Source of the DNA: Chiloscyllium plagiosum
Taxonomy: Eukaryota
NCBI RefSeq assembly: GCF_004010195.1
Contig: NC_057718.1
Coordinates: forward strand, 6,876,474 to 6,940,473
DNA length: 64,000 nucleotides
Direction of reading: 5' to 3'
In this document: positions 3,128-64,000 of the stretch, one piece after another
Layout: the number at the start of each line of letters is the position of its first letter
Position numbering within the stretch: the first letter of the stretch is position 1
Notes under the pieces: model-generated
Databases searched by the model: none
What the model saw: the letters and a program-made list of their open reading frames with translations, nothing else
What the model was told of the DNA's origin: nothing
Translations under genes and position numbers: made by a program

Positions 3128-3340
3128 GATTTGGAGATGCCAGTATTGGACTGGGGTGTACAAAGTTAAAAATCACACAACACCAAGTTATAGTACAGTA
3201 AGTTTAATTGGAAGCACACTAGCTTTCGGAGTGCCGCTCCTTCATCAGATGTTAGTGTCACCTAATGAAGGAGCGACACACCGAAAGCTAGTGCTTCCAA
3301 TTAAACCTGTTGGACTATAACCTGGTGTTGTGTGATTTTT
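3128..3340. mobile_element. Palindromic PLE-derived mini-insertion with two opposed hammerhead-bearing arms
   Basis: Arms AAAAATCACACAACACC..GGAAGCAC..TAGCTTTCGG and CCGAAAGCTAGTGCTTCC..GGTGTTGTGTGATTTTT; flanking direct repeat TAATTTAGTCCC at 3116-3127 and 3340-3351. Confidence 0.85.
3217..3251 (-). ncRNA. Minimal type I hammerhead ribozyme motif (family A)
   Basis: Minus strand reads CAU-CUGAUGA-A-GGAG(CGGCA)CUCC-GAAA-GC-UA/GUG: conserved core, stem II, palindromic AGCU stem III, stem I CAU/GUG. Confidence 0.75.
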
Positions 3341-4127
3341 AATTTAGTCCCATTTGCCAGCATTTTGCCCATATCTCTCCAAACCCTTCCTATTCATATA
3401 TCCATCCAGATACCTCTTAAATGCTGTAATTGTACCAGCCTCCATCATTTCCTCTAGTAGATCATTCCATACACGCACCACCCTCTGCGTGAAAAAGTTG
3501 CACCTTAGGTCCCTTTTCTATCTTTCACCTCTCACCTGAAACTATGCCATCTAGTTCTGGATTCCCCACCCCAGGGAAAAGACTTTGCCTATTTACCTTA
3601 TCCATGCCCCTCATAATTTTGTAAACCTCGATAAGGTCACCCCTCAGCCTCTGGCGCTCCAGGGAAAACAGCCTCAGCCTGTTTACCCTCTCCCCATAGC
3701 TTAAGTCCTCCAACCCTGGCAACATCCTTGTAAATCTTTTCTGAACCTTTTCAAGTTTCACAACATCCTTCCGACATGAAGGAGACCAGAATTGCACGCA
3801 ATATTCCAACAGTGGCCTAACCAATCTCCTGTACAGCCGCAACATGACCTCCCAACTCCTGTTCTCAATGCTGTGAAGAACAAGGTTAAATCTTGGTGGG
3901 GAGGTGCTGTATAAGGCAATTAATACCTGGAAAGGTTAATTGATGTCATAAGAAGAGTTCTGCCCATTAGGTTATTACAAACTGCTCCTGGGAGGAACTG
4001 ACCACTTCTCTGGGAGCCACAGAGAGTTGCGTGAGTCCTTGGCTTGTTACCAACTCTACACGAAACAGGTTAACATTTCAAGTCTAACATGACTCCTCTT
4101 CAGAACTTAGCTTATTTCAGCCTTCCA

Positions 4128-4242: not shown

Positions 4243-4385
4243 CAGATTTCCAGCATTTGGAGTATTTGCTTTCAACTGAAGTTCAAGTTTTGTGGTGTTT
4301 CTTCAAATGAGGTTATTGATAATTTTTTTGTGTCTTCCTGGAAATCACGTGATTGGTAGTAATGTATTATTTCATGGTGGAATAT

Positions 4386-4692
4386 GAGATTCCCTACAGT
4401 GTGGAAACAGGCCCTTCGGCCCTATAAGTCCACACCGATCCTCTGAAGAGTAACCCACCTTGTCTCATTTCCCTCTGACTAATGCACCTAATACTACAGG
4501 CAATTTCTCATGGCCAATTCACCTGACCTGCACATCTTTGGACTGTAGGAGGAAACCGGAGCACCCGGAGGAAACCCACGCAGACACGGGGAGAATGTGC
4601 AAACTCCACACAGACAGTTGCCCGAGGCTGGAATTGAACCTGGGACCCTGGTGCTGTGAGGCAGCAGTGCTAACCACTGAGCCACTGTGCCA
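4386..4692 (-). mobile_element. HE1-type shark tRNA-derived SINE
   Basis: Minus-strand head GGCACAGTGGCTCAGTGGTTAGCACTGCTGCCTCACAGC with B-box GGTTCAATTCC; CR1-like tail GGCCTGTTTCCACACTGTAGGGAATCT. Confidence 0.9.
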
Positions 4693-5044
4693 CTCTCTGA
4701 GGCTGTTTTGAAAGGTGGCAGAATTGGACAGGCCTTTGTTTTAAACAAAATCTGAAATTGCTGGAGAAATTCAGCAGGTCTAGTGACATCTGTGGAGAGA
4801 GAAACAGAGCGAATGTTTTGAGTCTGGTGACCCTTCTCCAGAACAAGCTTTTGAAAATCTGGTTGGATTGGGGAAATCCTGCTCAGAATATGGAGCCCAG
4901 CTGATCTCTTCCAGGTCTGAAAAGCAAACACTCTTGTGGAATTCTGGGTGAAATCTATTTATTTTTTCTGGAAAGAGTGATTAGAAAGAATACTTCACAA
5001 TTACAATTCCTGAGTAACCTATGTAAGATTGTATTTTGCACAGA

Positions 5045-6320: not shown

Positions 6321-7067
6321 CATTTCCCAAGAAAACAATGGACAATTAGTGAGGTGACCACGCGTGCCACAACATCAGAACAACAGACTTTGGAATATTC
6401 CACAATTTATCCATTTAACTTCAAGAATTTATTTTCCTTCAGAAAGTCAATCCCCACAGAGAAATCTGTTTTGTTCTCTCTTTTCCTGAAATTGTGCATG
6501 TTTTTATAATAAGGAGATGTTTATAATAAGCCTTACACTTTATTACAGGCTTTTGTATTTGCACATCACTGACTGTGAATGCTAACTAATAATTTTATTT
6601 TCAGTGAATAAGTTTTGCTTTGATAATAAACCAATAGATGTGTGAATTAGGAAACTTGGTTAATAGATCATCTTTGTAACTGGAAGAAGTATTTTTAATT
6701 TGATGTTGAAGTAGTGCATTTCTCTAGCCTGTCATATTATTTATAATAAATTTATTTAGTGTTAATTGAGATTGATTTGATCTTCTGTCTAAGACGTCAC
6801 ATGGATATCCTTCCAGTAACCTAGACTAATAAAGGGTAAAGAGAAAGTCACCATCATTCTACTGCAAGCACACAGTTATACTCTCTCCTTACAGAGGTTT
6901 AATTTAAGGGTCACTATACCTCAGGCGAGGTAAAAGACTGAGAAAGATAATCATTCATCACGATCTTAGCTGCTGGGAGAATTGAACCCACACTGTTGGC
7001 ATCACTCTGCATTGCAAACCAGCTGTCCAGACAACTGAACTAACCAACCGCTCCCACACTTTGTTAG

Positions 7068-7376
7068 CTGCACGGTGGCTCAGTGGTTAGCACTGCTGCC
7101 TCACTGTGCCAGGGACCTGGGTTCGATTCCAGCCTCGGGCGACTGTCTGTGTGGAGTTTGTACATTCTCCCCGTGTTTGTGTGTGTTTTCGCCGGGTGCT
7201 TGGTTTCCTCCCACAATCCAAGGATGTGCAGGTTAGCTGAATTGGCCATACTAAATTGCCCGTAGGTACATTAATCAGGGGTAAACGTAGGGGAATGGGT
7301 CTTTGGAGGGTCGGTGTGGACTTATTGGGCCAAAGGGCCTGTTTCCACACTGTAGGGAATCTAATCTAATCTAATC
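7068..7376 (+). mobile_element. HE1-type SINE
   Basis: tRNA head with A/B boxes (GGTTCGATTCC), conserved body, (CTAAT)n tail. Confidence 0.92.
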
Positions 7377-30179: not shown

Positions 30180-30995
30180 GTGGGGAGGTGATGGCCTGTG
30201 GTGTTAATGTTGGACTGTTGATCCAGTGACCCAGATAATGTTCTAGAGTCCTGGGTTCAATTCCTGCCATGGCAGATAGTGTAATTTGATTTCAGTGAAA
30301 ACCTGGAGTTAACAGACAATTACAACATTTAAAAGGCATCTGGATGGAAAAATGAATAGGAAGGGTTTGGAGGGAGATGGGGCAAGTGGTAGCGAATGGG
30401 CCTAGATTAATTTAGGGTATCTGGTCAGTATGGCTGAGTTGGACCAAAGGTCTATTTCTGTACTGTACATCTTTATTATTCCATGATGACTATGAATCGA
30501 TTGTCAGGAAAAACCCACCTGGTTCACTAATGTCCTTTAGGGAAGGAAACTGTCATCCTTACCAGATTACATTAGATTAGATTATATTACAGTGTGGAAA
30601 CAGGCCCTTCGGCCCAACAAGTCCACACCGACCCGCCGAAACGAAACCCACCCATACCCCTACATTTACCCCTTACCTAACACTACGGGCAATTTAGTAT
30701 GGCCAATTCACCTGACCTGCACATCTTTGGACTGTGGGAGGAAACCAGAGCACCTGGAGGAAACCCACGCAGACACGGGGAGAATGTGCAAACTCCACAC
30801 AGTCAGTCGCCTGAGGCGGGAATTGAACCCAAGTCTCAGGCACTGTGAGGCAGCAGTGCTAACCACTGTGCCAGCGTGCCGCCCACAATCTGGCCTACAT
30901 GTGACTCCAGACCCACAGCAATGTGGTTGACCCCGACAGTTAGGGATGGGCAATGAATGCTGGGCTGGCCAGCGATTCCCTCATCCTGTGAATGA
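30180..30995 (+). mobile_element. Second tRNA-derived SINE family with a nested CR1 tail (~30315-30485) and nested HE1 (minus, ~30566-30885)
   Basis: Head GGGGAGGTGATGGCC..GGGTTCAATTCCTGCCATGGCAG; tail TAGGGATGGGCAATGAATGCTGG..GAATGAATAAA shared with the CR1/L2-clade LINE. Related copies near 14990-15320, 39888-40170, 52063-52520 and 54691-55310. Confidence 0.8.
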
Positions 30996-40815: not shown

Positions 40816-41653
40816 CCCTGCGAAGGATATGGAAACCTTTGTTTGACCTAGAGTACCAATTAAGATAAAGTATTAGCCAGGGCAACTCAGTGCTTCTGAC
40901 GATAGAAAGTCTGGACGTTAACTTTCCCATTTGGTGCTGCCTCCCTTTCCAACTATTTTATGGGGAATAATATTTGATTGCATGAGTCAAAGTTTCCCTT
41001 AAATTAAAAAAAAGTTATACTTGTTTTCAAATTTGACTTTTTGCTTATTTTTTGCAGCTTGCAGGATTTGTAACCTGGTTGTTATGGTATTAATCGAAAG
41101 TCCCCTGAGGCCAGTAGTCTAATTCTGAACTTTTTTGGGTAGGCATGCGGTTGCTGCGCATTTTTCTGGCCACATCCCAGGCTTTCGGCCTGAACGTCCT
41201 GTTAATGTTGACCTAACTTGCTGATGTTGATCTTACCTAGCGCACACCCTGTGCAATGCAACCTAAATGCCTCTGTCTAAGTATGTTTTCACCCTCTGAT
41301 CTGCATGTCTTTGCTTACTATATCCTGCCTGTACTGATTGCAAACAAAGTTTTTTGCTGTAGGTAGGTATACATGGCAATAAATCAATCAAATCATATCA
41401 AATTTCTAAGAAATAGTGTATCTTTCACTGACTAAACATGCTGTTGAGAGGCTCAGTAAAATCGTCCCTGGTGACCTGGCAGTTTAACTGAACCTGTTTG
41501 ACGAGCGGGAAAATGGGGATGAGACCCAATGTTAGCCAAGATATTGAGTGGCCCAGCATTGTTCCAACATTCGGGGGATTTCCTGCCACGTTTAACTTTG
41601 CACCTTGGATATTAAAGGGCCAATGTTGTAAGGATAAAAGCCTTCTTTGATAT

Positions 41654-42951
41654 AAAGTTAAAAATCACACAACACCAAGTTATAGTCATCACGAGGCCAT
41701 CCCCATCCCCGAACCTGGCCATCAGCCTCCGCCTGGCCACACCACGCAAATGCTCGTCCCGAACCCTGTCTCAGAGGACGGCCACCCAAGGCCCGAGGCC
41801 GAACGTCCCGGACCGCTGAAGCGCTCCCTGACAGGGAGGGAATACCCCTGGCCAACGGTTCCCATGCGGTGTCCTTTCATTCGCCACCACAGCCTCCGCT
41901 CGGTCCCGCCAGCGCACCATGCCTCAGGGCATCCCCGCCTCGGCCGGGGCTTTTGGTTTATGTTGCACTGCGGGTGGCCCTGCTGCATTGCGCATTCTGT
42001 CTCTCTCGCACACACATGCGGTCGAGCATACACACAGACACACACATACACCCCCCCACAAACACACACACACACACACACACGTACACACACTCACACA
42101 CAGCCACACACACACATCCTTTCTCTCTCTCTCACACACACATACACATGCTTTCTCTCTCANNNNNNNNNNCCCCTACACAGACACACCCACACGTGCA
42201 CACACTCACATGCACATACACTCACATAGACCCTCTCTCATGCACTAGCTCTCTCTCTCACATATACCCATACATACACACCCCCTACACTCATACCCAC
42301 ACACGACCATCTCATAGACTTATACCCCTTTACACTCTCACATATACGCATACACACATTGTCTCACAGACACTAACACTGCACCCCCCCAACACACACA
42401 CACTCATGCATGCACACACACACACACATACACACAAATGTAAGTTTGTGGGGTGAATTTGTACTTGCAGAATTACATTTTACTTTGCTCAAAAACTGCT
42501 TGAATCCATGTAAGATTCTGTAAATCCCTTTTTTAGAAATAGAATCAGTCTGAACATTGGGGCGCAGACAGTCTCACACAGGGCAACTCACACCTTCAAT
42601 GCATTGTCTGGGCCGACATGGCACCTATTGTTAAAGTTCACTTGACAATGCAAATTCTTAAAAAATGTTCTAGGATATACATATGAAAGAATGAAACCAC
42701 CATGGTCATTCTAAAAGATGAGAGACTTAACAAACAATCCAGGTCTTTTTCAATATATAATTTCAGTTACATCACACTGAAAACTTTTGCTATAAATTCT
42801 ATGTCATACAATCTTATACTCCACAACCACCTCATGAAGTAGCGGCATTCCGAAAGCTAGTGCTTCCAAATAAACCTGTTGGACTACAACCTGGTGTTGT
42901 GTGATTTTTAACTTTGTCCACCCCAGTCCAACACCGGCATCACTAAATAAT
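41654..42951. mobile_element. Rearranged Penelope-like insertion: inverted terminal piece, inverted GIY-YIG segment, then sense 3' region with CA tract and decayed family-A hammerhead
   Basis: 11-bp TSD TTCTTTGATAT at 41643-41653 and 42952-42962; terminal inverted copies of AAAGTTAAAAATCACACAACACC; minus-strand translation GCPEAWCAGGTERRLWWRMKGH..SLPVRERFSGPGRSASGL. A 10-N gap lies at 42163-42172. Confidence 0.88.
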
Positions 42952-43477
42952 TTCTTTGATATCTGAGCCAGTCACTGAATGAGCAGTCTCACGCTGTGAG
43001 ATTTCTGAAAAGAATATTCACTGGAAGTGATCAAGTCTCAATTTCTCCAGATCAAAACAAAAATCAACGTGTGAAGACATAAGCAGGACCAAATTCAAAC
43101 TGCTTTTCGAGACGAAAATGTCAAATGTGAAAAGAACATGTTATCCCTAAAGGACACCATGGATCATTGCAGAACTCCCACTGTGCTTCATCATGTTGAT
43201 GCATTTAGCAAAGAGAAGATAAGTTTCAATCTCACTCCTTGAGACCTGAGCATCAAATATAGATTGTCACTCGAGTGTTACACTGCCTTAGAGGTCTCTT
43301 AGGTAGGCATGAATGATCAATCCCATAACCCCACTCCAATGAAGAATGAGGTGGTTATCCTGAAAATCTGTCCAGTTTTAATTCCTGACTCCACCCCACA
43401 TATGAACCCAATGTCACTGAGACAGAGTTATCTTTAATTCTCAAGCATAGTAAATGGTTGCCATCATCATTATCATT

Positions 43478-44466: not shown

Positions 44467-44660
44467 CATGATTTGGAGTTGATGGTGTTGGACCAAGTTA
44501 AAAATCACACAACACCAGGTTATAGTCCAACAGGTTTATTTGGAAGCACTAGCTTTCGGAGCGCTGTTCCTGATTATCTGATGAAGGAGCAGTGCTCCGA
44601 AAACTAATGCTTCCATTTAAACCTGTTGGACTATAACCCTGTTTTTTTTATTTTTAACTG
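44467..44660. mobile_element. Palindromic PLE mini-insertion with hammerhead motif (family A)
   Basis: CTGATGAAGGAGCAGTGCTCCGAAAACTA from 44578, with an opposed partial arm upstream. Confidence 0.8.
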
Positions 44661-54690: not shown

Positions 54691-55310
54691 TGGGGAGGCG
54701 ATGGCACAGTGATGTTATCATTGGGCTGTTAATCCAGAGACCCAGGTTCAGCTCCTGCCATGGCAGATGTTGGAATTTGAATTCAATAAACATCTGGAAT
54801 TAGGAGTCTGCTGATGACCCTGAGTCAATTGTCAGAAAAACTCATCTAGGTCACTAATGTCCTTTAGGGAAGGAAACTGCCATCCTTGCCTGGCCTGGCC
54901 TACATGTGACTCCAGACCCACAGCAATGGGGTTGCACAGTGGCTTAGTGGTTAGCACTGCTGCCTCACAGCACCAGGGACCTGGGTTCAGTTCTTACCTG
55001 GGGCAACTGTCTGTGTGGAGTTTGCACATTCTCCCTGTATCTGCGTGGGTTTCTTCTGGTTTCCTCCCACAGTCCAAAGATATGCAGGTTAGGTGAATTG
55101 GCCATGTTAGATTGCCCGTAGTGTTAGGTGCACTAGTCAGGGGTAAAATGTAGGGGAATGGGTCTGGGTGGGTTGCTCTTCAGAGGGTCGGTGTCGACTG
55201 GTTGGGTCGAAGGGCCTGTTTCCACACTCTTGGCAATCTAATCTAATCTAAACTGCCTGCTGGGTAATAAATGCTGACCTAGCCCAAGAAGTCCACATCC
55301 CCTGAATGAT
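54691..55310 (+). mobile_element. tRNA-derived SINE (second family) with nested HE1 SINE (~54928-55250)
   Basis: GGGGAGGCGATGGC head; HE1 with (CTAAT)n tail; outer SINE tail resumes AATAAATGCTG. Confidence 0.85.
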
Positions 55311-61230: not shown

Positions 61231-63384
61231 CGTCTATTGTCTAAAAGGCACCACCAGCACACAAAAGGTTGTGACAACTCCTTTGGAGACACATAAGGGG
61301 CAGTGTGGTTGGAGGTCTGCTGGCCTGTGAAACAATGGGATGTTTACAGGAAGGAGGGGAAAATCTCACACAGAGTTTTCTCTCCCCAAGTCAAATAATA
61401 TTTGACTCGAAGAGAAAAGGTGAAAGTCATTGTTTAACCATTTTCAGGATATTGTCAGGACGCCAGGAAAATGTTTGGCTGTTGCAGTTGGATGAGAATT
61501 CCTCACAGGAGAAGTGAGAATAGAGTGCATTGATCAGTTCTGATGTGAGTAAGTGCCATAGGGGAGGAAATGGGCTCTTAAACTTGATTGACATCAGAGG
61601 TTGTGCTCAGCTGAGTGAAGACTTCAACACTGAGGCCACAAGGTCACCATTGGAAAGCCGGTCCAGAAAAACCAGGACATCTATATCGCCAGACAGGCAC
61701 ACGGTTCCACCTCAACGTCTGGGAATTCCATTGAGCAGTCAGTCCCTGCCCCCTTCCACAATGATGATGAATGAGAGGAAATGTGAAAGAAGAATTGGAC
61801 TCGGATATGTAGATTTTTAAACACATTTGGGAATCTGGGATTGGAGTATCTCGGAGAATGACATCCCCATATGCTTGAAAACTATGCATTATCCTAGTGC
61901 CCTTAAAACCCAGCCAGCAGGAACAAAGATACAAGGAGAAGGGACTCCAACCTTTGGGTAAATCTCTGGATTTTGCATGACTGATGTCTGTAATGGCTCA
62001 ACAATCTATTTAACTCATATCGCTCCATGCCACTGCCTCTAGATTTGAAGGAGTGCAGTGGTCACAGTCCCATGATGTCTGGTTTTGGAGGCAAGACTGG
62101 GTGTTGTCTTTGAGGCCCCTGTTTTGCAGAGACGGCTTCCCCCTCTGGTAACGGGGATGCGCCGTCTTCATGCCCCCAACTCTACCTCTCAACCATATCT
62201 TCTGATTCGACCTGTGAGTCACAAAAACCTCCTCCCTGTAATGCATTGAAAATTCTGCATTGTGCATTCTGTCCATTTACAGTCAGGAGATGAGGGCACA
62301 AAGACGGTTTGTGGGGGAAGAGCAGAGGTTGGCCCATTGAGTCTGCATCGCCACTCAGTGAGATCATCAGTTGGTCACCCTCAATTCCACTTTTCTGCTT
62401 TATCCCCACGACCCTGGATCCCCTGACCGATTAAAAAACCTGTCTTGAATCGACCTCACCTCTGTTGTTAGCCAACTGAAAGAATGGCCCCCAGTGATGA
62501 AATACCATTTCAGCTGGTGTCTCCAAATGTGAGATGATGGACGCACCCCTGTATGAAAGGTCTCAGTCGCCCAAAGGGGAGAGGCGGGAATGGAGACTGA
62601 GCACAGGGAGAACAGTCGAGTAAAGGCTGCAAAATATCAGCCGCCATGCAACTAAGACGGATGTGTGGACAGGTAATGGAATGTGTAATGCTAGTGGCAA
62701 TGTCTGTGGCTGGTGAGTGCTGTCAGTCTGGAACATTCTGAGGTTCATCAAACTCCAACTATGTGACCCATGGCAACCAGACGTCCATCGGTGTGTCCCC
62801 TGGCAAGCACACAACAATCTCACTGTATCAGATTCCCATGGCTTTGGACATGCAGCAACAGAGTATCGGATCTAAACTGGGAGGGACTCTTCATATGGAA
62901 AAGAAGGAAGCTTGAATAATAGATTATCTATCTAAATAAATCCCCTTGCCTGGGTGAGTCAGCCTCAACAACACTCAAGCATGATCCAAGACAAAGCAAC
63001 CACTTGATTGGCACCACATCCACAAACATTCACATCCTCCACCATCGACACTGAGTGGCAGCAGGTTGTGCACTGCATCTGCTCACTAAAACTCTCCCAA
63101 CAGCACCTTTCAAACCCATGGCCACTCCATCTGGAAGGACAAGGGCAGCAGCTACATTGGAACACCACCCCCTGGAAGCTCCCCTCCAAGCCACTCGCCA
63201 TTCTGACTTGGAAATATATCGCTGTTCCTTCAGTGCCACGGGGTCACAATCCTGGAACTCCCTCCCTAAAAGCACTGTGGACATATCAAGCACCAAATGC
63301 TTCAAGAAGGTAATTCATCGAGGAATGGGCATTAAATACTGGCCCAGCCAATGAAGTCTGCATCTCATGAATTAGTCTGCATTC

Positions 63385-64000
63385 ACTACAGTATGGAAAC
63401 AGGCCCTTTGGCCCAACAAGTCCACACTGACCCTCCGAAGAGTGACCCATTCCCCTACGCTTTATTTACCCCTGACACTACAGGCAATTTAGCATGGCCA
63501 ATTCACCTAACCTGCACATTTTTGGAATGTGGGAAGGAGACCCACGCAGACACGGGGAGAATCTGCAAACTCCACACAGACAGTTGCCTGAGGGTGGAAT
63601 TGAACCTGGGACCCTGGTGCTGTGAGGCAGCAGTGCTAACCACTGAGCCACCGTGCCGCCCCAAAATGTCGGAATGTAAAGCTAGTTATGGTATTGCTAA
63701 CCTTGAAACTCTCATCAACTGCTGTTGAATCAGGCCATCTGGCCCAACAAGTCCACACTGACCCTCTGACCAGCATCCCACCCAGACCCACCGCACTACC
63801 CTATCCCTGCATTTCCCACGGCTAATCCACCCAGCTTGCACATCCCTGGACTGTGGGAGGAAACTGGAGCACCTGGCGGAAACCCACACAGACGCGGGGA
63901 GAATGTGCGAACTCCATACAGACAGTCACCCAAGGTTGGAATTGAACTCAGGTCCCTGGAGCTGTGAGGTAGCAGTGCTAACAACTGAGCCATCATGCCA
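63385..64000 (-). mobile_element. Two HE1-type SINEs (~63385-63662 and ~63730-64000)
   Basis: Minus-strand heads GGCGGCACGGTGGCTCAGTGGTTAGC and TGGCATGATGGCTCAGTTGTTAGC. Confidence 0.9.

What the first reader, a model, noticed from the sequence alone, without database searches (positions are those of the whole stretch)
41693..42010. Penelope copy with strand-coherent A-to-G hypermutation: possible genomic fossil of an ADAR-hyperedited retroelement RNA
Seen: this GC/CpG-rich island lies inside a TSD-flanked PLE insertion. Its minus strand (41693-41936) translates GCPEAW-CAG-GTERRLWWRMKGH..YSLPVRERFSGPGRSASGL. From recall, the shark PLE GIY-YIG consensus is roughly GCPEAW-YIG-ETEQRLRQRMNGH..CSLPVGEHFSGPGHSASDL. 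Most differences are A>G codon changes (TAC>TGC, GAG>GGG, CAG>CGG, CAC>CGC, CAT>CGT, GAC>GGC). Some look like A>G followed by CpG decay (CAA>CGG>TGG). After the inversion junction (~41936) the element runs on the plus strand and the bias flips with it: GCCTCGGCCGGGGC..GTTGCACTGCGGGTGGCCC, only 4 A in about 70 nt. So the change is A>G on the element's sense (RNA) strand in both arms. By hand count, 34 sense-strand A remain in the 244-nt inverted arm: 19 follow G, 10 follow C, 4 follow A and 1 follows T. This fits the known ADAR avoidance of a 5' G and preference for a 5' U, though G-richness inflates the effect. APOBEC editing would give G>A instead. Inference: a dsRNA-forming PLE transcript was A-to-I hyperedited, then reverse-transcribed and integrated, destroying the YIG motif. 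That would record ADAR acting on a retroelement in the shark germline.
Basis: partly seen in the sequence, partly recalled or inferred. Interest (0 to 1): 0.88.

Follow-up and report, generated by a model that had tools for sequence, protein, structure and literature searches.

The report
ADAR-type hypermutated Penelope retroelement copy
A broken retrotransposon copy in this shark-sized genome has about half of its adenines turned into guanines on its RNA-sense strand only, which looks like a preserved record of RNA editing on a mobile-element transcript before it was copied back into germline DNA.

Summary
Window 41654-42951 is a Penelope-like element (PLE) insertion flanked by an 11-bp target-site duplication. 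It has an inverted 5' arm (41693-41934, sense on the minus strand) joined near 41935-41937 to a direct arm.

Against 29 family copies, arm A has 31 A>G among 53 differences (31 of 63 A; T>C 2 of 37). The first ~65 nt of arm B has 10 A>G among 18 (10 of 15 A; T>C 0 of 11), both in element sense. Seven copies chosen without composition bias give the same result. The 3' 520 nt of the same insertion is normal (A>G 4 of 152).

Edited fractions by 5' neighbour run T>A>C>G, the ADAR order. Contigs from a second study reproduce the bases. No G-rich subfamily appeared among the scored hits.

A second locus elsewhere in the genome carries the same signature on a larger scale: A>G 129 of 327 A, 5'-neighbour p = 6e-14.

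Best reading, at about 0.75: an ADAR-hyperedited PLE RNA was reverse-transcribed and integrated. The enzyme, the dsRNA partner and the timing are inferred. The orthologous arms in two related species could not be read.

The parts
41643..41653 (.). left target-site duplication TTCTTTGATAT
   Evidence: It is identical to 42952-42962.
41654..41687 (-). 34-nt inverted copy of an internal part of the element's 3' tail; not hypermutated
   Evidence: It forms inverted repeat I1 with 42882-42915 (94%). None of its 7 A is changed. Contigs from three species run from the left flank into it.
41688..41692 (-). 5-nt linker between the inverted tail piece and arm A, matching no family sequence
   Evidence: Alignment to family copies.
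41693..41934 (-). arm A: inverted GIY-YIG-coding segment of the PLE ORF, carrying A>G hypermutation on the element sense (minus) strand
   Evidence: A>G 31 of 63 A and T>C 2 of 37 T against 29 copies. A>G 32 of 64 A against 7 copies chosen without composition bias.
41935..41936 (.). inversion junction; the family pentamer GCCTC is present at the breakpoint of both arms
   Evidence: Alignment of both arms to the family.
41937..42025 (+). arm B start: end of the ORF and first bases of the 3' UTR, with A>G hypermutation on the plus (sense) strand; G-richness ends near 42025-42030
   Evidence: A>G 10 of 15 A, T>C 0 of 11 T, C>T 6 of 21 C. Composition by 30-nt bins.
42026..42430 (+). CA-rich microsatellite-like 3' UTR with an assembly gap (N at 42163-42172); its editing state cannot be judged
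   Evidence: Family copies carry a variable CA-rich tract at the same place. Repeat families D1 and D2.
42431..42951 (+). 3' region and tail of the direct arm; not hypermutated, so it serves as an internal control
   Evidence: 457 aligned, 22 differences (4.8%), A>G 4 of 152 A, T>C 2 of 148 T against 22 copies.
42952..42962 (.). right target-site duplication TTCTTTGATAT

Best explanation
A sense-strand transcript of a Penelope-like retrotransposon was hyperedited by an adenosine deaminase acting on double-stranded RNA (ADAR). The edited stretch ran from at least the GIY-YIG coding region to the start of the CA-rich 3' UTR. Inosines were read as G by the element's reverse transcriptase.

The same RNA then served as template for two target-primed cDNAs, one from each DNA strand, in a twin-priming-like event typical of PLE inverted insertions. 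This placed the upstream part of the edited stretch in inverted orientation (41693-41934) next to its downstream continuation (41937 onward). The A>G changes therefore sit on the minus strand in the left arm and on the plus strand in the right arm. The copy was truncated, inverted and without the YIG motif from the moment it integrated.

Shown:
- the spectrum and the strand flip;
- the limits of the hypermutated zone;
- the neighbour preference;
- the validity of the base calls;
- a second locus with the same signature.

Inferred:
- ADAR as the enzyme;
- the existence and nature of the dsRNA partner, for example antisense PLE transcripts or a source copy with a palindromic 5' arm;
- editing before integration;
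- the twin-priming route.
For: 1. Spectrum. Sense A>G is 41 of 78 A over both arms, against T>C 2 of 48 T. The result is the same with 7 reference copies picked by similarity to the unmutated 3' part. Those copies themselves carry 0-4 A>G each.

2. Localisation. The 3' 520 nt of the same insertion has A>G 4 of 152.

3. The zone follows RNA coordinates. The 34-nt tail piece abuts arm A in the DNA but comes from the far 3' end of the RNA, and it has 0 of 7 A changed (P = 0.005 at the arm's rate). The two arms are contiguous in element coordinates, with a 5-nt overlap.

4. 5' neighbour of edited A. The fractions are T 7/7 > A 7/10 > C 17/30 > G 10/24 (chi-square p = 0.04). Depletion of G upstream is the ADAR motif (PMC4365171, passages read).

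5. Edited fraction. It is 49-67% of A, the range I recall for hyperediting of long duplexes.

6. Second locus (L024/L031). A>G is 129 of 327 A, T>C 4 of 239, and 129 of 179 differences are A>G. The 5' neighbour fractions are T 0.82, A 0.62, C 0.29 and G 0.18 (p = 6e-14). The 29 reference copies have 0-10 A>G each.

7. Base calls. A contig of run X1 covers 41659-42010 with 0 differences. A contig of X5 (other study, other sample) covers it with 2, both C>T at CpG.

8. Enzyme family present. The genome holds A_deamin (PF02137) exons above cut-off at six contig regions.

9. Anatomy. An inverted 5'-truncated copy plus a 30-40-bp tail is the described PLE insertion pattern (PMC8557442, passages read).
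Against: - No dsRNA partner was identified. A canonical full copy (L034) has no internal inverted repeat at E <= 1e-3.
- Enrichment of G at the 3' neighbour, the other half of the ADAR motif, is not significant at either locus (p = 0.16; p = 0.48).
- The window's own neighbour test rests on 71 sites (p = 0.04).
- Timing is not shown directly. The orthologous arms in the two related species that share the insertion junction were not covered, so an in-situ process in this lineage is excluded only by argument.
- At the second locus the A>G polarity follows one genomic strand across three segments of two different elements in different orientations. It stops at an inverted/direct junction. This needs a composite edited RNA and is not fully explained.
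- New CpGs made by the edits show C>T in 7 of 17 cases, against 1 of 16 for pre-existing CpGs (p = 0.09).
- In cell assays ADAR1 restricted L1 without editing it (PMC5224506, passages read). Editing of retrotransposon templates is therefore not a general rule.
Confidence: 0.75

Rival explanations
1. Error-prone DNA synthesis during integration. After the two cDNAs met at the junction, each was extended on the other by a polymerase that often puts G opposite template T. Candidates are the element's own RT with skewed dNTP pools or a translesion polymerase. This would give A>G on the nascent second strands running outward from the junction.
For: It explains the strand flip exactly at the junction and the fact that the zone brackets the junction. 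A preference for A or T before the changed base is, from recall, also a feature of polymerase eta errors, and the observed order T > A > C > G fits that.
Against: - The conversion rates are 49-67% of all A and 7 of 7 at TA. From recall, this is far above polymerase eta error rates.
- The zone stops at the boundary between arm A and the tail piece, where 0 of 7 A are changed although the nascent strand would run on.
- At the second locus the model predicts the wrong strand. The hypermutated strand of the PLE-2 inverted arm is the cDNA-polarity strand, and the direct arm next to the junction has 0 A>G among 170 A.
Confidence: 0.1
2. A post-integration, in-situ process in this lineage. Candidates are transcription-associated strand asymmetry around a divergently transcribed CpG-rich island, GC-biased gene conversion, or deamination of DNA adenines in RNA:DNA hybrids (R-loops).
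For: The polarity (A>G on the strand pointing away from the junction on both sides) is the one expected for divergent transcription. The region is now CpG-rich, with o/e 0.75. The second locus shows single-genomic-strand polarity irrespective of element orientation, which a DNA-strand process would explain simply.
Against: - GC-biased conversion should raise T>C as much as A>G, but T>C is 2 of 48.
- The magnitude is about half of all A over ~330 nt, while the remaining differences stay near family level and the adjacent 3' 520 nt is only 4.8% diverged. From recall, this is orders of magnitude beyond transcription-associated asymmetry.
- CpG>TpG polymorphisms in a second individual and 7 CA>TG changes argue that the island is methylated and decaying, not protected.
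- Deamination of cDNA or hybrid DNA would give T>C in element sense in the window, the opposite of what is seen.
Confidence: 0.08
3. The copy descends from a distinct G-rich PLE lineage, or the G calls are assembly or sequencing errors next to the CA tract and gap.
For: One other G-rich copy (L024) shares 20 of its 30 A>G sites with the window in the overlapping segment.
Against: - The best non-self matches to the arm are 71-77% identical.
- L024 finds only ordinary copies at 83-85% identity, among 40 scored of 4948 candidates, and it belongs to another subfamily.
- The sharing (20, against about 16 expected by chance) is inflated because L024 was found by similarity to the window.
- Two contigs from different studies reproduce the arm with 0 and 2 differences.
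Confidence: 0.03

Closest known systems
ADAR1 hyperediting recorded in integrated exogenous retroviral proviruses (BLV; HTLV-2 and STLV-3 as cited there). Source: PMC8025556, passages read.
   Same: Sense-strand A>G clusters become fixed in DNA because an edited viral RNA was reverse-transcribed and integrated.
   Different: Those cases are somatic proviruses of exogenous retroviruses with short clusters (7 or more A>G in ~70 bp of the LTR). Here the copy is a germline-fixed Penelope-like retrotransposon with 41 A>G over ~330 nt, and the second locus has about 170 over ~1.5 kb. The insertion junction is shared by three species.
APOBEC G>A hypermutated endogenous retroelements. Source: PMC4866542, abstract and methods passage read.
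   Same: A deaminase footprint is fossilised in a genome because a hypermutated retroelement still integrated. It is detected by comparing a copy with its family.
   Different: The enzyme family differs, the substrate is cDNA rather than RNA, the direction is G>A on the sense strand, and the context differs. In the window G>A is 5 of 53 differences in arm A and 0 of 18 in arm B.
Hyper-edited RNA clusters in transcriptomes. Source: PMC4365171, passages read.
   Same: Dense A>G clusters with G depleted one base upstream.
   Different: Those are RNA-only and not inherited. Here the changes are in genomic DNA of at least two individuals. The downstream G enrichment reported there is not significant here.
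PLE complex inverted insertions with a 'tail' (PMC8557442, passages read; PMC11167929, abstract read), and L1 twin priming (recalled, no call).
   Same: An inverted 5'-truncated arm next to the direct copy, a 30-40-bp tail signature at one end, and a target-site duplication. As in twin priming, the inverted segment lies just upstream of the direct segment in element coordinates, with a few bases of overlap.
   Different: The inverted arm carries an internal skip from the tail piece to the ORF end. In the family copies fetched, the tail match lies about 550-1200 nt beyond the end of the GIY segment. The hypermutation is not part of the described PLE pattern.
Endogenous Mtv61 5' end with excess A>G. 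Source: PMC12548423, passage read.
   Same: A germline retroelement copy with more A>G than expected, for which ADAR was considered.
   Different: There the authors state that the sequence context does not fit ADAR. Here the 5' neighbour order fits at both loci.

Membership tests
Penelope-like element (PLE) insertion | [quoted passage not shown] | tested here: inconclusive
   The L034 ORF of 437 aa hits RVT_1 at E 1.1e-5 and 25.6 bits, below the 29.6-bit cut-off. No Pfam GIY-YIG hit was found. The motif string ...YIGETEQRL...GH... is visible by eye in the ORF. The PLE assignment rests on this and on the insertion anatomy.
Penelope-like element (PLE) insertion | Inverted 5'-truncated copy next to the direct copy, a 30-40-bp tail at one end, and a target-site duplication | tested here: met
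   A 34-nt inverted tail piece, inverted arm, direct arm and an 11-bp TSD are present. The pattern is as described in PMC8557442.
Penelope-like element (PLE) insertion | Hammerhead ribozyme motif in the terminal repeat | tested here: not met
   An Rfam scan of 41500-43100 at E <= 1 gave no hammerhead hit. The motif may be degenerate in this copy.
ADAR hyperediting footprint | Dominant A>G clusters coherent on one RNA strand | tested here: met
   A>G is 41 of 71 differences and 41 of 78 A, against T>C 2 of 48 T. The control region has 4 of 152.
ADAR hyperediting footprint | 5' neighbour preference, with G depleted upstream (U>A>C>G) | tested here: met
   Window: T 7/7, A 7/10, C 17/30, G 10/24, p = 0.04. 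Second locus: 0.82, 0.62, 0.29, 0.18, p = 6e-14.
ADAR hyperediting footprint | G enriched at the 3' neighbour | tested here: inconclusive
   Window: 3' G 11/18 against 30/53 for other bases, p = 0.79. Second locus: G is highest at 0.44, but p = 0.48.
ADAR hyperediting footprint | A long double-stranded RNA substrate | not testable with these tools
   A canonical copy has no internal inverted repeat. The source locus and any antisense transcripts are unknown. At the second locus a 227-nt inverted arm lies next to the edited copy.
ADAR hyperediting footprint | The host encodes ADAR-type deaminases | tested here: met
   PF02137 exons above cut-off were found at six contig regions, 24 matches in all.
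APOBEC-type hypermutation | Sense-strand G>A dominance | tested here: not met
   G>A is 5 of 53 differences in arm A and 0 of 18 in arm B.
GC-biased gene conversion / ordinary CpG island | Strand-symmetric weak-to-strong changes (A>G about equal to T>C) | tested here: not met
   A>G 41 against T>C 2. A second individual shows CpG>TpG polymorphisms at 41856 and 41971.

The most novel reading that the evidence does not exclude
The hypermutation is mechanistically tied to PLE integration rather than merely preceding it. At both loci a boundary or the centre of the hypermutated zone coincides with an inverted/direct junction of a PLE insertion.

At the second locus the zone covers an inverted arm plus 1.3 kb of neighbouring sequence on one strand and stops at a 4-nt microhomology junction. 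Two readings would fit. Hyperedited dsRNA-derived RNAs, including composite host or TE transcripts, could be captured preferentially by template switching of the PLE reverse transcriptase. Alternatively, an adenosine deaminase could act on the nucleic-acid intermediates at the integration site. Either would be a new link between ADAR and retroelement integration in vertebrate germlines.
Probability: 0.12. Interest if true: 0.85.

Novelty: new variant of a known kind. Interest (0 to 1): 0.64.

Why it matters
ADAR editing of retroelement RNA is well known at the RNA level. Edited retroviral genomes have been seen as somatic proviruses. A 2016 review stated that a role of ADAR editing in mutating retrotransposon copies 'has not yet been determined' (PMC4982230, passage read). 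My seven literature searches found no report of a germline-fixed retrotransposon copy with an ADAR-context A>G hypermutation. They also found nothing linking ADAR to Penelope-like elements.

If the reading holds, three things follow:
- These loci are a heritable record that ADAR met PLE transcripts in the germline of a cartilaginous fish, and that edited RNAs can still complete retrotransposition.
- A single event made a GC- and CpG-rich 330-nt island (CpG o/e 0.75, against 0.44 for family copies) out of ordinary repeat sequence. That is a quick route to sequence novelty.
- Such copies fall to 71-77% identity with their family, so they can escape repeat annotation.

The approach used here (family majority, strand-specific spectrum, neighbour test) could be applied genome-wide to measure past conflict between ADAR and transposable elements.

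Tried and rejected
I worked from searches and loci instead.
- Rfam gave no hammerhead in the window's tail at E <= 1. Pfam gave nothing on the edited arm's translation.
- No RNA holder was listed among the sequencing runs, so nothing can be said on expression.
- Orthologous arms: in runs X13 and X16 (two other species labels) no contig covered 41756-41779 or 41948-42010 at >= 85% likeness. X13 also had none over 41732-41755. This is lack of cover only.
- G-rich subfamily: none appeared among the scored hits.
- Intramolecular dsRNA in a canonical copy: no inverted self-match.
- Reverse-transcriptase misincorporation next to inosine, as an explanation for C>T just 5' of edited A: 7 of 17 in the window but 1 of 39 at the second locus. 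Rejected.
- An apparent family-wide A>G excess in the first reference set (140 against 31 T>C) is a selection artefact of fetching copies by similarity to a G-rich query. It is absent in the other sets: 146 against 139 and 92 against 83.
- A target-site duplication around the composite at the second locus was not found.
- Earlier notes of this scan held nothing.
- The review by Knisbacher and Levanon (2015) is not held. I could not check whether it reports genomic ADAR footprints.

Full report
ANATOMY

The window segment 41654-42951 is one insertion flanked by an 11-bp target-site duplication, TTCTTTGATAT, at 41643-41653 and 42952-42962. From left to right it holds:
- a 34-nt inverted copy of an internal piece of the element's 3' tail (41654-41687), paired with 42882-42915 at 94%;
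- a 5-nt linker;
- an inverted arm, arm A (41693-41934), whose minus strand encodes the GIY-YIG end of the family ORF;
- a junction at 41935-41936;
- a direct arm, arm B, starting at 41937 with the last codons of the ORF.

Arm B then runs through a CA-rich 3' UTR, which contains an assembly gap at 42163-42172, to the 3' tail. The family pentamer GCCTC ends arm A and begins arm B, so the two arms are adjacent in element coordinates with a 5-nt overlap.

An intact relative (L034) has a 437-aa ORF ending ...GCPEAWYIGETEQRLRQRINGH...SLPVGEHFSGPGHSASDL.... It gives only a weak RVT_1 hit, at 25.6 bits below the cut-off. An inverted 5'-truncated copy plus a 30-40-bp tail is the published PLE insertion pattern (PMC8557442, passages). 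Internal initiation of reverse transcription underlies the tail (PMC11167929, abstract). Rfam found no hammerhead in this copy.

THE OBSERVATION

The genome (3.56 Gb, 101,977 contigs) holds many copies. Of 537 candidates, 40 were scored, and the best non-self matches to 41654-42010 are 71-77% identical. I compared the window with the column majority of 29 such copies:
- Arm A has 53 differences in 236 aligned positions. Of these, 31 are A>G on the element sense strand (31 of 63 A), and 2 are T>C (2 of 37 T).
- Arm B (41937 to about 42005) has 18 differences in 59 positions: 10 A>G (of 15 A), 0 T>C (of 11 T) and 6 C>T.

Those reference copies had been fetched by similarity to a G-rich query. 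I therefore repeated the count with 7 copies chosen only by similarity to the window's 3' part. Seven of the 10 stretches fetched contained the segment. The repeat gave arm A A>G 32 of 64 and T>C 2 of 37, and arm B A>G 10 of 15 and T>C 0 of 10. Those 7 copies carry 0-4 A>G each.

The 3' 520 nt of the same insertion is ordinary: 22 differences in 457 positions, A>G 4 of 152 and T>C 2 of 148. Fisher tests give p = 2.5e-6 for arm A, 9.6e-4 for arm B, and 3.4e-19 for the arms against the control region.

The bases are real. A contig of run X1 covers 41659-42010 with no difference. A contig of X5, from another study and sample, covers it with two, both C>T at CpG (41856 and 41971).

LIMITS OF THE ZONE

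G-richness ends at about 42025-42030, where the CA tract begins. On the other side, the 34-nt tail piece that abuts arm A in the DNA has 0 of 7 A changed (P = 0.005 at the arm's rate).

In element (RNA) coordinates the zone is therefore one contiguous block, from the 5' truncation point to the start of the CA tract. Both pieces derived from the RNA's 3' region are clean. In DNA coordinates the zone would have to stop abruptly at an internal join.

SIGNATURE

Neighbours were taken from the pre-edit family sequence. The fraction of A converted depends on the 5' base: T 7/7, A 7/10, C 17/30, G 10/24 (chi-square p = 0.04). The 3' base has no significant effect (p = 0.16). Depletion of G upstream is the recognised ADAR motif (PMC4365171, passages). 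The downstream G enrichment reported there is not seen here. The genome carries A_deamin exons at six contig regions.

Seven CA>TG double changes fit A>G followed by CpG decay. However, C>T at the new CpGs (7 of 17) exceeds that at old CpGs (1 of 16; p = 0.09), which I cannot explain.

A SECOND LOCUS

One of the 40 hits, L024 (contig C37), turned out to be hypermutated as well. Against 29 young copies that are each 2-5% diverged and carry 0-10 A>G, its 1.1-kb copy has 179 differences. Of these, 129 are A>G (129 of 327 A), against T>C 4 of 239. The 5' neighbour fractions are T 0.82, A 0.62, C 0.29 and G 0.18 (p = 6e-14). The 3' neighbour is not significant (p = 0.48). No copy resembles it more closely than 85%, so it is a singleton, not a subfamily.

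Its layout differs from the window's. A 227-nt inverted arm at its 5' end shows T>C 28 of 62 in its own sense. The inverted arm of an adjacent, unrelated young PLE shows T>C 15 of 47 in its own sense. That element's direct arm is clean: 0 A>G of 170 A and 26 differences in 893 positions. All A>G changes there lie on one genomic strand over about 1.5 kb, whatever the element or its orientation. They stop at an inverted/direct junction. No target-site duplication was found around the composite. An edited composite RNA of that polarity would explain this, but how it was copied into DNA is open.

WEIGHING THE MECHANISMS

RNA editing of a sense transcript, followed by two-sided target-primed reverse transcription, explains four features of the window:
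- the flip of polarity at the junction;
- the RNA-coordinate limits of the zone;
- the high conversion rate;
- the neighbour order.

An error-prone second-strand synthesis running outward from the junction also explains the flip. It does not explain the clean tail piece or the conversion rate, and it predicts the wrong strand at the second locus.

Deamination of DNA adenines in single-stranded or hybrid intermediates fits the second locus but predicts the wrong strand in the window.

GC-biased conversion is excluded by the A>G against T>C asymmetry. A protected CpG island is made unlikely by CpG>TpG polymorphism.

A G-rich lineage and sequencing error are excluded as far as the scored hits and two contigs allow. 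I put ADAR-edited RNA at about 0.75.

AGE

Contigs of two other species labels (X13, X16) run from the left flank across 41653 into the tail to 41676/41677, with 11 and 16 mismatches over about 305 nt. The insertion junction therefore predates their split from the window's species. Their arms were not covered at >= 85% likeness, so the key test, whether the arms are edited in all three species, remains undone.

LITERATURE

Seven full-text searches found the following:
- ADAR hypermutation recorded in somatic proviruses (PMC8025556, passages);
- an endogenous MMTV with A>G excess but without the ADAR context (PMC12548423, passage);
- APOBEC G>A fossils (PMC4866542);
- editing-independent restriction of L1 by ADAR1 (PMC5224506, passages);
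- a review stating that a mutational role of ADAR on retrotransposon copies was undetermined (PMC4982230, passage).

I found no report of a germline retrotransposon copy with an ADAR-context hypermutation, and none for Penelope-like elements. The 2015 review by Knisbacher and Levanon could not be read. Subscription journals are largely outside the library.

VERDICT

It is a new variant of a known kind, deaminase footprints fossilised by retrotransposition, here of the A-to-I type, in a PLE, in a cartilaginous-fish-sized genome, and seen at two loci. The second locus raises an unexplained link to PLE inversion junctions.

Noticed in passing
L031 1299-2629 / L071 (G000 contig C37, about 34,027,000-34,029,400): A second, larger hypermutated locus. 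A>G lies on one genomic strand over about 1.5 kb, spanning a 1.1-kb PLE copy, its 227-nt inverted arm and the inverted arm of a neighbouring unrelated PLE. It stops at that element's inverted/direct junction. No target-site duplication was found.
   Followed up: partly
window 41693-42005: C>T is concentrated at C followed by A (10 of 31) compared with other C (3 of 51). At edit-made CpGs it is 7 of 17, against 1 of 16 at pre-existing CpGs. The pattern is not seen at the second locus (1 of 39).
   Followed up: partly
window 42163-42172: A ten-N assembly gap lies inside the CA-rich 3' UTR of the insertion, so the true length of the tract is unknown.
   Followed up: no
window 41660-41683: The 34-nt tail piece is an extremely abundant word set. 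Summed contig word depth is about 2.0-3.0 million in runs of all three species labels, against 6-16 for the unique flank.
   Followed up: no
window 3166-3342, 44498-44657, 4384-4696, 7066-7372, 30574-30811, 54934-55249, 63381-63659: Further fragments of the same PLE family's 3' region are present, two of them as short head-to-head inverted pairs. No other copy of the GIY-YIG segment is in the window.
   Followed up: no
G000 contigs C5, C7, C17, C32, C41, C51: Six regions carry exons of the adenosine-deaminase (A_deamin) domain, so several ADAR/ADAD-type genes are present.
   Followed up: no
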